The notes under the pieces: model-generated
Told to the model about the DNA's origin: nothing
The model's database searches: none
What the model saw: only the letters and a program-made list of their open reading frames with translations
Program-made: the position numbers and the translations under genes
Shown: piece by piece, positions 5,331 to 11,048 of the stretch
How the letters are laid out: the number at the start of each line of letters is the position of its first letter
Numbering within the stretch: the stretch's first letter is position 1
Virus record (IMG/VR): IMGVR_UViG_2703718771_000002
Length of the DNA stretch: 11,449 nucleotides
Reading direction: 5' to 3' (one strand)
Origin: a virus
Lineage: Duplodnaviria > Heunggongvirae > Uroviricota > Caudoviricetes

Positions 5331-5582
5331 ATGGAATTTCATGAAAGTGCGATTTGTGATTTTCGCGCTAACGCAAATTCAGTAAAACCACAGCCAATTG
5401 CAGTTCTTTTAAAAACAATGGGTGCGTGGGCTGTTTTATGCTTCGCCGCTGACGACACTGACGCAAGAATGGCAATAGGACAAGAGATGGAGATGGACCC
5501 GACAAACGATGAATTCATAATTTATGGCGCTCCATCTAATTACTTACTTGATACCTGCAACATTTACAACAAGGCTGCCTGA
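5331..5582 (+). CDS. Hypothetical protein, 83 aa, first gene after N (ral/sieB-equivalent position)
   Basis: ATG 5331 with SD GAGGTG 4 nt upstream. No family recognised. Confidence 0.55.
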   Translation: MEFHESAICDFRANANSVKPQPIAVLLKTMGAWAVLCFAADDTDARMAIGQEMEMDPTNDEFIIYGAPSNYLLDTCNIYNKAA

Positions 5583-5629
5583 TGGTGGCCTTTATTTTTG
5601 GCATAAACAACAGAATAAACACAGCACTG

Positions 5630-5657
5630 TGTATTCATTCCAACGAGTGAATACACG
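5630..5657. other. Inverted repeat: 9-bp stem GTGTATTCA / TGAATACAC with a 10-nt loop
   Basis: Perfect 9-bp arms at 5630-5638 and 5649-5657 in the untranslated gap between the 5331 ORF and cIII. No T-run follows. Confidence 0.4.
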
Positions 5658-5718
5658 GAGCAATGTCGCTCGTAACTGAACAGGAGCCGACTTGTTCTGA
5701 TTATTGGAAATCTTCTTT

Positions 5719-5744
5719 GCCCTCCAGTGTGAGGGCTTTTTTAT
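5719..5744 (+). terminator. Intrinsic terminator inside the early-left operon (tL1-like, presumably overridden by N)
   Basis: Stem GCCCTC / GAGGGC, 6-nt loop, then TTTTTTAT. Confidence 0.6.
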
Positions 5745-5808
5745 ATGCATACCAATAACGCTTCACTCGAGGCGTTTTCGTTATGCAATCAAATATAAGG
5801 AGTTACCC

Positions 5809-5943
5809 ATGATGCACTTTCAGCTCGCGGGTAGCGGCGTCATGTCCGCTTTCTACCCGCACGAATCTGAATTATCACGCCAAGTTAAACAATTAATCAG
5901 AGCAGCAAAGAAACAACTGGAGGCGTTATGCGCAATGAAATAG
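5809..5943 (+). CDS. cIII: cIII-like small protein (44 aa), putative FtsH/HflB inhibitor
   Basis: ATG 5809 with SD AAGGAG 6 nt upstream. The central segment ESELSRQVKQLIRAAKKQL resembles the lambda CIII amphipathic region (ESLLERITRKLRDGWKRL) as recalled. Position matches lambda cIII. Confidence 0.5.
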   Translation: MMHFQLAGSGVMSAFYPHESELSRQVKQLIRAAKKQLEALCAMK

Positions 5944-10741: not shown

Positions 10742-11018
10742 CCTGCAACTTGCCGTTAAAGGTGAATACTTCGATGCCATGATTCGCGGAGAGAAAACGG
10801 AAGAGTATCGCCTGTGTAATGACTACTGGAAAAAGCGCCTCGTTAACCGTAAGTATGACCGCCTGATTATCACAAAGGGATATCCGAAGCGCGACGACTT
10901 CAGTCGCAGAATTGATGTCCCGTATGACGGATATGAAATCAAGACAATCACACATCCCCACTTCGGCGATAAACCGGTAAAGGTATACGCGATAAAGGTG
11001 AATATCAGCAATGAATAA
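10734..11018 (+). CDS. ASCH/PUA-like domain protein (94 aa)
   Basis: GTG 10734 preceded by SD AGGAGG, overlapping the previous gene by 8 nt. N-terminal pattern AVKGEYFDAMIRGEKTEEYRL is reminiscent of ASCH domains. The track's longer ORF from 10605 is rejected. Confidence 0.45.
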   Translation: MANLQLAVKGEYFDAMIRGEKTEEYRLCNDYWKKRLVNRKYDRLIITKGYPKRDDFSRRIDVPYDGYEIKTITHPHFGDKPVKVYAIKVNISNE

Positions 11019-11022
11019 CAAT

Positions 11023-11048
11023 CCTCGCATTCGCGGGGATTTCTTTTA
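11023..11048 (+). terminator. Candidate intrinsic terminator after the ASCH-like gene
   Basis: Stem CCTCGC / GCGGGG (one G-U pair), loop ATTC, then ATTTCTTTTAT. Confidence 0.35.

What the first reader, a model, noticed from the sequence alone, without database searches (positions are those of the whole stretch)
5331..5744. Unknown first gene after N, followed by a structured untranslated gap and an internal terminator
The N-to-cIII interval in lambdoid phages is a second hotspot for exclusion and restriction-alleviation genes (ral, sieB). Here it holds an 83-codon gene of unknown family (5331-5582), then about 225 bp without a credible ORF that contains a perfect 9-bp-stem hairpin (5630-5657) and an intrinsic terminator (5719-5744). 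The terminator would confine later-gene expression to N-modified transcription, while the 83-aa gene would be expressed from pL even without N.
Basis: partly seen in the sequence, partly recalled or inferred. Interest (0 to 1): 0.45.

Follow-up and report, generated by a model that had tools for sequence, protein, structure and literature searches.

The report
Known phage sRNA PreS, unknown gene
The "structured gap" after the 83-codon gene is a near-identical copy of phage lambda's recently described PreS small RNA with its flanking terminators, so it is already explained. The 83-codon gene is a real, conserved gene whose function is still unknown.

Summary
orf83 (5331-5582) is a real gene. 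The next 226 nt have no conserved ORF. The hairpin and the terminator exist.

The gap is not anonymous. Window 5567-5738 is about 96-98% identical to the phage lambda ral-ea10 spacer, and 5745-5785 matches the lambda ea10-cIII spacer. The window is therefore lambda's arrangement without the ea10 cassette.

Primer sequences in the Silverman/Melamed preprint define lambda sRNA LPR1/PreS. They place its homologue at 5658-5743: one substitution, a 2-nt loss, and an identical seed. PreS is Hfq-dependent and activates host dnaN. Its pairing is kept through compensatory changes in 10 of 13 pairs.

orf83 equals VT2-Sakai H0090 and HK106 gp42 (PHROG 2471, function unknown). It is under purifying selection, acidic, and almost always the first gene after N. 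It has no detectable homology or fold match and is not Ral.

Verdict: ordinary and already known, apart from the uncharacterised orf83.

The parts
4782..4810 (+). pL promoter (TTGACC-17-TACTAT)
   Evidence: Promoter scan. Coincides with the 'putative major leftward promoter' of VT2-Sakai at a constant offset of 3249; window 3601-5747 is 99.6% identical to that record.
4856..4896 (+). nutL (N-utilisation site)
   Evidence: Sequence identical to the annotated VT2-Sakai nutL.
5000..5272 (+). N antiterminator gene (90 aa)
   Evidence: Pfam N_peptide, E = 2e-31; PHROG 271.
5321..5327 (+). Ribosome-binding site of orf83 (GAGGTGA)
   Evidence: Read from the sequence.
5331..5582 (+). orf83: an 83-aa acidic protein (pI 4.2, charge about -7) of unknown function, equal to VT2-Sakai H0090 and HK106 gp42
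   Evidence: PHROG 2471 at E = 8e-61, function unknown. No Pfam, NCBIfam or PADLOC hit. dN/dS 0.06-0.26 where estimable. Sits directly after N-family genes. Charge.
5571..5598 (+). Terminator-like hairpin overlapping the orf83 stop codon (AAGGCTGCC-TGAT-GGTGGCCTT, then TATTTT). Its 5' arm encodes the K-A-A-stop tail.
   Evidence: dG -13.9, z = -4.1. The same element ends lambda ral and BTP1 ral. In diverged orf83 copies the G.U pair becomes G-C.
5627..5658 (+). 14-bp hairpin with a CAAC loop, immediately 5' of PreS +1.
   Evidence: dG -21.7, z = -7.0. Four unrelated stem sequences in relatives all fold. Compensatory changes in 10 of 13 pairs with 96.6% of cells paired on the structure-guided alignment; 7 of 13 on the plain MAFFT alignment.
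5658..5743 (+). Homologue of the lambda sRNA PreS/LPR1 (86 nt; lambda 88 nt = complement 33924-34011)
   Evidence: Ends defined by primers P810/P1103 and P1104/P1108 of the preprint, mapped. Differences from lambda: one substitution at 5678 and loss of 'GA' before the U-run. Numbering confirmed by the alaS pairing figure.
5678..5697 (+). PreS stem-loop 2 (GAACAGG/CUUGUUC), about where the ~68-nt processed form would begin
   Evidence: Fold. A-U to G-C covariation in 18 sequences and G-U to A-U in 17. Processed form described in the preprint.
5693..5719 (+). PreS seed: 11-nt (5693-5703) and 12-nt (5708-5719) blocks exactly complementary to the E. coli dnaN leader
   Evidence: using the dnaN leader rebuilt from the preprint's primers. 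Identical to the lambda seed. Sites of the preprint's M1, M2 and seed-deletion mutations.
5719..5742 (+).
   Evidence: Annotated as a terminator in HK106 and HK97. Equated with lambda tL2a in the preprint. The stem covaries in Salmonella phages.
5743..5746 (.). Junction where lambda and Stx phages carry the ea10 cassette; the slot is empty here
   Evidence: Alignment A1; BLAST break at 5747. About 10 different gene families occupy this slot in other phages.
5757..5782 (+). Second downstream hairpin plus U-rich tail (AACGCTTC-ACTC-GAGGCGTT, then TTCGTT), just before the cIII ribosome-binding site
   Evidence: z = -2.9. Homologous to the lambda ea10-cIII spacer: 97.5% over 40 nt, and the window lacks one T of lambda's U-run.
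5809..5943 (+). cIII gene (RBS AAGGAG at 5797-5802)
   Evidence: Pfam cIII, E = 1e-29; same extent as cIII in HK106 and HK97.

Best explanation
This is an ordinary stretch of a lambdoid early-left (pL) operon made of two independent modules.

**Module 1: orf83.** orf83 is a small acidic cytoplasmic accessory protein. It occupies the variable first slot after N, the slot that holds ral in lambda. It is probably made as an immediate-early product, because no intrinsic terminator precedes it. Its function is unknown. My best guess, at low confidence, is that it inhibits a host defence or housekeeping protein, working like an anti-restriction or anti-defence factor.

**Module 2: the conserved non-coding cassette shared with lambda.** It has four parts:
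- a hairpin over the stop codon;
- a 14-bp hairpin;
- the 86-nt sRNA PreS/LPR1, ending in an intrinsic terminator;
- a further hairpin before cIII.

**How it works.** By homology with lambda, PreS is cut out of pL transcripts. No conserved promoter lies upstream, so its 5' end is made by processing next to the 14-bp hairpin. It binds Hfq through its terminator and U-tail. Its seed pairs with the host dnaN leader to raise DnaN translation, and it represses alaS. This supports phage DNA replication in the lytic cycle. The same terminators stop RNA polymerase that lacks N modification, so cIII, kil, erf and the genes beyond depend on N.

**Shown versus inferred.** Shown here: sequence identity, seed complementarity, structure and covariation. 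Inferred from lambda: expression, Hfq binding, processing and the regulatory effect.
For: - Gap versus lambda: about 96-98% identity from the last 15 nt of the gene to the terminator, then the ea10-cIII spacer, with ea10 absent.
- Lambda LPR1/PreS lies between ral and ea10. It is Hfq-bound, about 88 nt with a processed form of about 68 nt, is expressed in the lytic cycle only, and its 3' end is tL2a.
- The preprint tested dnaN activation and alaS repression with compensatory mutations.
- The preprint's primers map PreS to window 5658-5743, with an identical seed.
- The seed has 12-nt and 11-nt blocks of exact complementarity to the dnaN leader.
- Hairpins and terminators fold far better than shuffled sequence.
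- The upstream hairpin shows compensatory changes in 10 of 13 pairs; PreS stem 2 and the terminator stem also covary.
- No ORF in the gap is conserved.
- orf83 is under purifying selection and sits after N. It is independent of PreS: directly adjacent in 35 of 79 loci and separated or unlinked in the rest.
- Variable slots lie on both sides of the cassette.
Against: - Nothing here shows that this copy is transcribed, processed or bound by Hfq.
- Rfam 15 has no family for it, so there is no independent model match.
- How the PreS 3' end forms when N-modified polymerase reads through terminators is unexplained.
- The role of the 14-bp hairpin is inferred only from its position and covariation.
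- For orf83 there is no homology, fold or context evidence for any particular activity. The AlphaFold model is weak (pLDDT 60) and fold searches were uninformative.
- The PreS work is a preprint (2024) plus one review citing it.
Confidence: 0.85

Rival explanations
1. The gap is only transcriptional punctuation: a structured spacer with one internal terminator that makes later genes N-dependent. It yields no functional RNA product.
For: Terminator-like hairpins are real and clustered. In lambda this region is a known termination site, which the preprint calls tL2a. HK106, HK97 and ES18 records annotate only a terminator here.
Against: The 60 nt upstream of the terminator stem are as conserved as the stem itself, including the seed, which is 100% identical to lambda. 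In lambda this RNA accumulates, binds Hfq and regulates dnaN and alaS, as shown with compensatory mutations. The terminator role and the sRNA role are compatible, so this view is incomplete rather than wrong.
Confidence: 0.08
2. orf83 and the downstream sRNA form a type I toxin-antitoxin pair, like RalR/RalA of the rac prophage. The sRNA would pair with the orf83 mRNA.
For: The layout is similar: a small gene in the ral region followed by an Hfq-dependent sRNA with a terminator.
Against: The longest exact complementarity between PreS and the orf83 mRNA is 6 nt, and the predicted duplex is weaker than for shuffled PreS (-36 versus a mean of -46 kcal/mol). PreS sits behind at least 19 unrelated genes. 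orf83 occurs without an adjacent PreS in more than half of loci.
Confidence: 0.03
3. The gap encodes a small protein in a frame the reader missed.
For: Mechanical ORFs exist: 51 aa at +5524-5679, 52 aa at -5592-5750, and a TTG-started extension of cIII from 5704.
Against: These ORFs are intact in only 3 of 103 distinct homologous sequences. Relatives differ by indels that are not multiples of three, and by insertion of whole genes at 5743-5746. cIII has its own ribosome-binding site and ATG at 5809.
Confidence: 0.02
4. orf83 is a functional analogue of Ral, alleviating type I restriction, even though it is unrelated in sequence.
For: It occupies exactly the slot of ral and is joined to the same stop-codon hairpin, giving the same ...NKAA tail. 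It is small, acidic and early.
Against: No similarity to Ral (hhalign probability 0.2%). At least 19 unrelated families use the same slot, so position alone says little about function. No family or fold hit.
Confidence: 0.12

Closest known systems
Phage lambda sRNA PreS / LPR1 (Silverman, Nashef, Bruner, Noy, Melamed; bioRxiv 10.1101/2024.10.31.621285)
   Same: Same position in the pL operon. 85 of 86 aligned bases are identical. Same seed, same terminator stem, same upstream hairpin.
   Different: - A to G at 5678, which adds a G-C pair to stem 2; only 4 of 68 sequences have it.
- The 'GA' between the terminator stem and the U-run is absent.
- The upstream gene is orf83, not ral.
- ea10 is absent downstream.
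Lambda tL2 terminators of the early-left operon (from my memory: Luk and Szybalski 1983; tL2a named in the preprint)
   Same: Homologous sequence and position. GC-rich hairpins followed by U-runs between the ral slot and cIII.
   Different: The window lacks ea10, so two lambda terminators that lie about 430 nt apart are only about 40 nt apart here. Which lambda name belongs to 5571-5598 and 5757-5782 could not be checked with these tools.
VT2-Sakai H0090 / HK106 gp42 (PHROG 2471), hypothetical proteins
   Same: One amino-acid difference (L27F); same position after N.
   Different: None of substance. No member of this family has a known function.
Lambda Ral (restriction alleviation)
   Same: Same slot. 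Same stop-codon hairpin, and therefore the same C-terminal ...NKAA tail.
   Different: No sequence or profile similarity outside that tail.
RalR/RalA type I toxin-antitoxin of the rac prophage (PMC4041452)
   Same: A small gene of the ral region with a neighbouring Hfq-dependent sRNA.
   Different: No sRNA-mRNA complementarity here, and the modules assort independently.
DicF of the Qin prophage (comparison from my own knowledge)
   Same: An Hfq-dependent sRNA processed from a prophage early operon transcript and ending at an intrinsic terminator.
   Different: No sequence relationship. Rfam found no DicF or any other family in the gap.

Membership tests
PreS / LPR1 sRNA of lambdoid phages | Sequence homology to lambda LPR1 over its full length | tested here: met
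   Window 5658-5743 against the primer-defined lambda LPR1: 1 substitution and a 2-nt deletion.
PreS / LPR1 sRNA of lambdoid phages | Location in the pL operon between the ral-slot gene and ea10/cIII, on the pL-transcribed strand | tested here: met
PreS / LPR1 sRNA of lambdoid phages | Seed complementary to the E. coli dnaN leader (and to alaS) | tested here: met
   12-nt and 11-nt exact blocks against the dnaN leader. The alaS-pairing nucleotides 42-56 are identical to lambda.
PreS / LPR1 sRNA of lambdoid phages | 3' GC-rich hairpin plus U-tail (Hfq-type terminator) | tested here: met
   Stem 5719-5736 plus six U.
PreS / LPR1 sRNA of lambdoid phages | Accumulates as RNAs of about 88 and 68 nt in the lytic cycle, binds Hfq, and regulates dnaN | not testable with these tools
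   Known only for lambda.
Lambda tL2-type intrinsic terminators | GC-rich inverted repeat followed by a U-run, homologous to the lambda sites | tested here: met
Lambda tL2-type intrinsic terminators | Stops unmodified RNA polymerase and is read through by N-modified polymerase | not testable with these tools
   Needs transcript mapping with and without N.
Ral (restriction alleviation) - for orf83 | Sequence or profile similarity to lambda or P22 Ral | tested here: not met
   hhalign probability 0.2%; no Pfam hit.
Ral (restriction alleviation) - for orf83 | Alleviates type I restriction or enhances modification | not testable with these tools
   Needs plating assays.
SieB or other known exclusion and defence proteins - for orf83 | Match to a defence or exclusion profile | tested here: not met
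   PADLOC, Pfam and NCBIfam gave nothing. The only PHROG hit is family 2471, function unknown.
PHROG 2471 (function unknown) - for orf83 | Full-length profile match | tested here: met
   E = 8e-61 over residues 1-83 of 83.
Type I toxin-antitoxin (RalR/RalA-like) | sRNA complementary to the mRNA of the adjacent gene | tested here: not met
   Longest complement is 6 nt; the duplex is weaker than for shuffles.
Any Rfam 15 family | Covariance-model match in 5583-5808 | tested here: not met
   No hit at E <= 1 anywhere in the gap. No match shows only that nothing reached threshold for any Rfam 15 family.

The most novel reading that the evidence does not exclude
orf83 founds a new family of immediate-early anti-restriction or anti-defence inhibitors. 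It travels with N in Stx and other lambdoid phages and is made before any terminator, independently of N. In addition, the covarying 14-bp hairpin is a so-far undescribed element needed to make or stabilise the PreS 5' end.
Probability: 0.2. Interest if true: 0.5.

Novelty: already known. Interest (0 to 1): 0.22.

Why it matters
Little is new. The non-coding part is a copy of an sRNA and terminators already described in lambda.

Three points still have practical value:
- Annotated Stx-phage, HK106 and HK97 records mark this site, at most, as a terminator. They should carry a PreS gene there.
- orf83 is present in medically important Stx2 phages (the VT2-Sakai type). It is conserved, linked to N and completely uncharacterised, so it is a reasonable candidate for anti-defence screening.
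- The conserved RNA cassette lies between two highly variable gene slots. It is therefore a convenient anchor for mining accessory genes in lambdoid prophages.

Tried and rejected
- **Rfam scan of the whole window.** Nothing in the gap; only a sub-threshold RsmY hit at 10911-11042.
- **orf83 family searches.** Pfam, NCBIfam, PADLOC and a PDB profile search gave nothing credible.
- **Exhaustive HMMER search over 1.84 billion representatives.** Only two full-length 50% clusters were found. There were also weak hits to a 53-residue tandem repeat in two giant proteins (E = 1e-6 and 9e-5, about 30% identity). I judge these to be repeat-inflated chance matches.
- **AlphaFold2 on a 10-sequence alignment.** pLDDT 60. 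Foldseek against PDB and BFVD gave no hit better than E = 0.2.
- **Literature search by locus tags.** Z1449 turned out to be cII, so it was irrelevant.
- **Searches for the original tL2 papers and the tL2a-d names.** Nothing usable.
- **RalR/RalA-like toxin-antitoxin idea.** Rejected for lack of complementarity.
- **Coding potential of the gap.** Rejected.
- **An own promoter for PreS.** The -10 region falls in the 3' arm of the upstream hairpin, which has four unrelated sequences in relatives. The only promoter-like site nearby (5494-5521) lies inside orf83.
- **Full-length RNAduplex of PreS with the dnaN leader.** Not meaningful, so I used exact complementary blocks instead.

Full report
**Context.** The window is a mosaic lambdoid (pro)phage with its early-left operon on the + strand. 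Its layout is:
- cI at 2547-3248;
- a pRM-operon terminator at 4573-4594;
- pL at 4782-4810;
- nutL at 4856-4896;
- N at 5000-5272;
- orf83 at 5331-5582;
- a 226-nt gap;
- cIII at 5809-5943;
- kil, a small recombinase-associated gene, erf and ssb.

Window 3601-5747 is 99.6% identical to the Stx2 phage VT2-Sakai. Further left it follows HK97/HK106-type sequence.

**The observation.**
- orf83 has a good ribosome-binding site.
- Its homologues diverge mostly at synonymous sites: dN/dS is 0.06-0.26 where dS could be estimated, and dS is saturated in the most distant pairs. It is therefore a real gene.
- The gap has no conserved ORF. The two mechanical ORFs that cross it are intact in 3 of 103 distinct homologous sequences.
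- The 9-bp hairpin is at 5629-5656, one base off. It is really a 14-bp stem (5627-5658) with dG -21.7 kcal/mol and z = -7.0.
- The terminator is stem 5719-5736 plus six T.
- Four of the six terminator-like sites in 2.1 kb fall in this 226-nt gap.

**What the gap is.** BLAST finds the 226 nt in 372 phage records, 315 of them at 95-99% identity, including lambda itself.
- The alignment with lambda shows that homology starts in the last 15 nt of the gene. Both lambda ral and orf83 end ...AAC AAR GCT GCC TGA, that is ...NKAA-stop.
- Homology then runs through the whole lambda ral-ea10 spacer to the terminator.
- It resumes in the ea10-cIII spacer.
- The window is thus lambda's arrangement with the ea10 cassette missing, as in HK106 and HK97.

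**The sRNA.** A full-text search for the lambda tL2 terminators led to the preprint of Silverman et al. (10.1101/2024.10.31.621285). They used RIL-seq during lambda infection.
- They found an Hfq-bound sRNA, LPR1 (renamed PreS), "between ea10 and ral".
- Its 3' end is the tL2a terminator.
- It appears as a band of about 88 nt and a stronger processed band of about 68 nt.
- It is expressed only in the lytic cycle.
- It activates dnaN translation and represses alaS. Both effects were verified with compensatory mutations.
- Seed or full deletions lower spontaneous phage yield 2- to 4-fold and reduce phage DNA replication.

Their cloning and T7 primers define the RNA ends.
- Mapped onto lambda, these give complement(33924..34011).
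- Mapped onto the window, they give 5658-5743, with one substitution (5678 G for A) and loss of a 'GA' between stem and U-run.
- Their alaS pairing figure confirms the numbering.
- The seed is identical. Window 5708-5719 and 5693-5703 are exact 12-nt and 11-nt complements of the E. coli dnaN leader.

**Structure and evolution of the cassette.** I collected relatives by BLAST, including diverged copies (73-77% identity) in P22-like Salmonella phages. I also collected them by a motif scan of IMG/VR. That scan required the PreS 5' motif, so invariance of stem 1 is by construction.
- The upstream hairpin occurs in four unrelated sequence versions. All fold into 9-14-bp stems ending 1-3 nt before GAGCAAU.
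- On a plain MAFFT alignment, 7 of its 13 pairs show changes on both sides.
- On a covariance-model-guided alignment, 10 of 13 do, with 96.6% of cells paired, and no shuffle or slid register comes close. That alignment is fitted to the structure, so the count leans towards it.
- PreS stem 2 (5678-5684 with 5691-5697) shows A-U to G-C in 18 sequences. The terminator stem also covaries.
- The hairpin versions and the PreS versions recombine freely.
- The four hairpin versions share no -10-like hexamer. The PreS 5' end is therefore most likely made by processing of the pL transcript, with the hairpin as a processing or stability determinant. This is inference.
- A much more diverged PreS-like element, with the GUUCUGAUUA core and a terminator, precedes cIII in an Enterobacter prophage.

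**Flanking slots.** Among 82 loci carrying the cassette, at least 19 unrelated gene families end just upstream: ral in 18, HK97 gp45-like in 10, orf83 in 4, and others. About 10 families start just downstream: ea10 in 26, several others, or cIII directly, as here.

**orf83.**
- It differs by one residue from VT2-Sakai H0090 and HK106 gp42 and matches PHROG 2471, function unknown.
- Its 90% cluster has 429 member sequences, all named "hypothetical".
- The family is narrow: two full-length 50% clusters among 1.84 billion representatives.
- Pfam, NCBIfam, PADLOC, a PDB profile search, AlphaFold2 (pLDDT 60) and Foldseek gave nothing. It is not related to Ral.
- It is acidic (12 D+E against 5 K+R, pI 4.2) and not hydrophobic overall (GRAVY -0.02).
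- In 81 contexts it is preceded by an N-family gene in 68, at 8, 58 or 290 nt in most (53) of them. In 6 more it is preceded by what I read as an arginine-rich, P22/phi21-like N.
- It is followed directly by the PreS cassette in 35 of 79 loci. In the rest it is separated from the cassette by other genes or not linked to it.
- PreS has no meaningful complementarity to its mRNA, so the two are independent modules.
- Its function remains unknown. A host-protein inhibitor or anti-defence role is a guess based on size, charge, timing and slot.

**Mechanism.** Steps taken from lambda or inferred are marked.
1. After repressor loss, pL transcripts run through nutL, N and orf83 without meeting an intrinsic terminator (shown by scan).
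2. Polymerase not modified by N stops at the tandem hairpins 5571-5598, 5719-5742 and 5757-5782 (inferred; classical for lambda tL2).
3. N-modified polymerase continues into cIII, kil, erf and ssb (inferred).
4. PreS is released by cleavage next to the 14-bp hairpin and by termination at, or trimming back to, its terminator. It is trimmed further to a form of about 66 nt starting near 5678, and it binds Hfq (from lambda).
5. Its seed opens the dnaN leader to raise DnaN and represses alaS, which helps phage replication (from lambda).

An open point is how the PreS 3' end forms when N suppresses termination.

**Comparison and verdict.** The non-coding part is a member of the PreS/LPR1 family and of the lambda tL2 terminator set. 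All sequence-level criteria are met; the functional criteria cannot be tested here. orf83 is a member of an uncharacterised family and is not Ral. The finding is real but already explained. The only unknown left is what orf83 does.

Noticed in passing
window 5567-5598; L003 (lambda ral end); L006 989-1035 (BTP1 ral end); L012/L014 orf83 ends: Unrelated genes in the slot (ral, orf83, a 207-aa gene) share a C-terminal ...(K/E)AA-stop tail. The mosaic junction lies inside the last codons, which form the 5' arm of the stop-codon hairpin. In diverged orf83 copies a G.U pair of that stem becomes G-C.
   Followed up: partly
L005 1468-1603, L006 1468-1603, L008-L011 and about 15 IMG/VR loci (e.g. L135, L133, L119): P22-like Salmonella phages carry a diverged PreS (73-77% identity, below the preprint's 92% cut-off). 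It has an insertion of about 13-15 nt, a changed second seed block and a different terminator stem, but keeps the GUUCUG(A/G)UUA core. Hybrid forms also exist. Their targets may differ.
   Followed up: partly
L016 3357-3492 and L017 1217-1352 (Enterobacter prophage): A very diverged PreS-like element (covariance-model E = 1.6e-4) lies just upstream of cIII. It has a hairpin, a UGUUCUGAUUAAU core and a GCCCGGC/GUCGGGC terminator.
   Followed up: no
window 5743-5746 and the equivalent site in 82 loci: The site right at the U-run of the PreS terminator is an insertion point for about 10 different gene cassettes (ea10 is the commonest). The 0-2 bases between the stem and the U-run vary with whichever cassette follows.
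   Followed up: partly
window 5678: The window's single substitution relative to lambda PreS (A to G) creates an extra G-C pair at the base of stem 2. Only 4 of 68 distinct sequences have it.
   Followed up: no
window 3750-4271 (+) and 4445-4567 (+): Between cI and the pRM-operon terminator (4573-4594), in the position of lambda rexAB, lie a 173-aa gene of unknown function and a 40-aa ORF. The 173-aa gene matches PHROG 2602 and VT2-Sakai H0093 and has only weak sub-threshold integrase-SAM-like hits. The 40-aa ORF equals H0092. The 173-aa gene hits no PADLOC or NCBIfam model.
   Followed up: partly
window 10911-11042 (+): A sub-threshold Rfam RsmY match (18.4 bits against a gathering score of 57; E = 0.61), driven by a terminator-like hairpin. 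Probably chance.
   Followed up: no
P0019 (3126 aa) and P0020 (3604 aa): Residues 24-70 of orf83 give weak, repeated matches (about 26-33% identity) to a 53-residue tandem repeat in a giant protein of unknown origin. Probably a repeat-inflated chance hit, but it is the only remote similarity found.
   Followed up: partly
window 5494-5521 (+): A promoter-like site (TGGACC-16-CATAAT, 9 of 12 matches) lies inside orf83, about 130 nt upstream of PreS. It is not shared with lambda, which has ral there.
   Followed up: no
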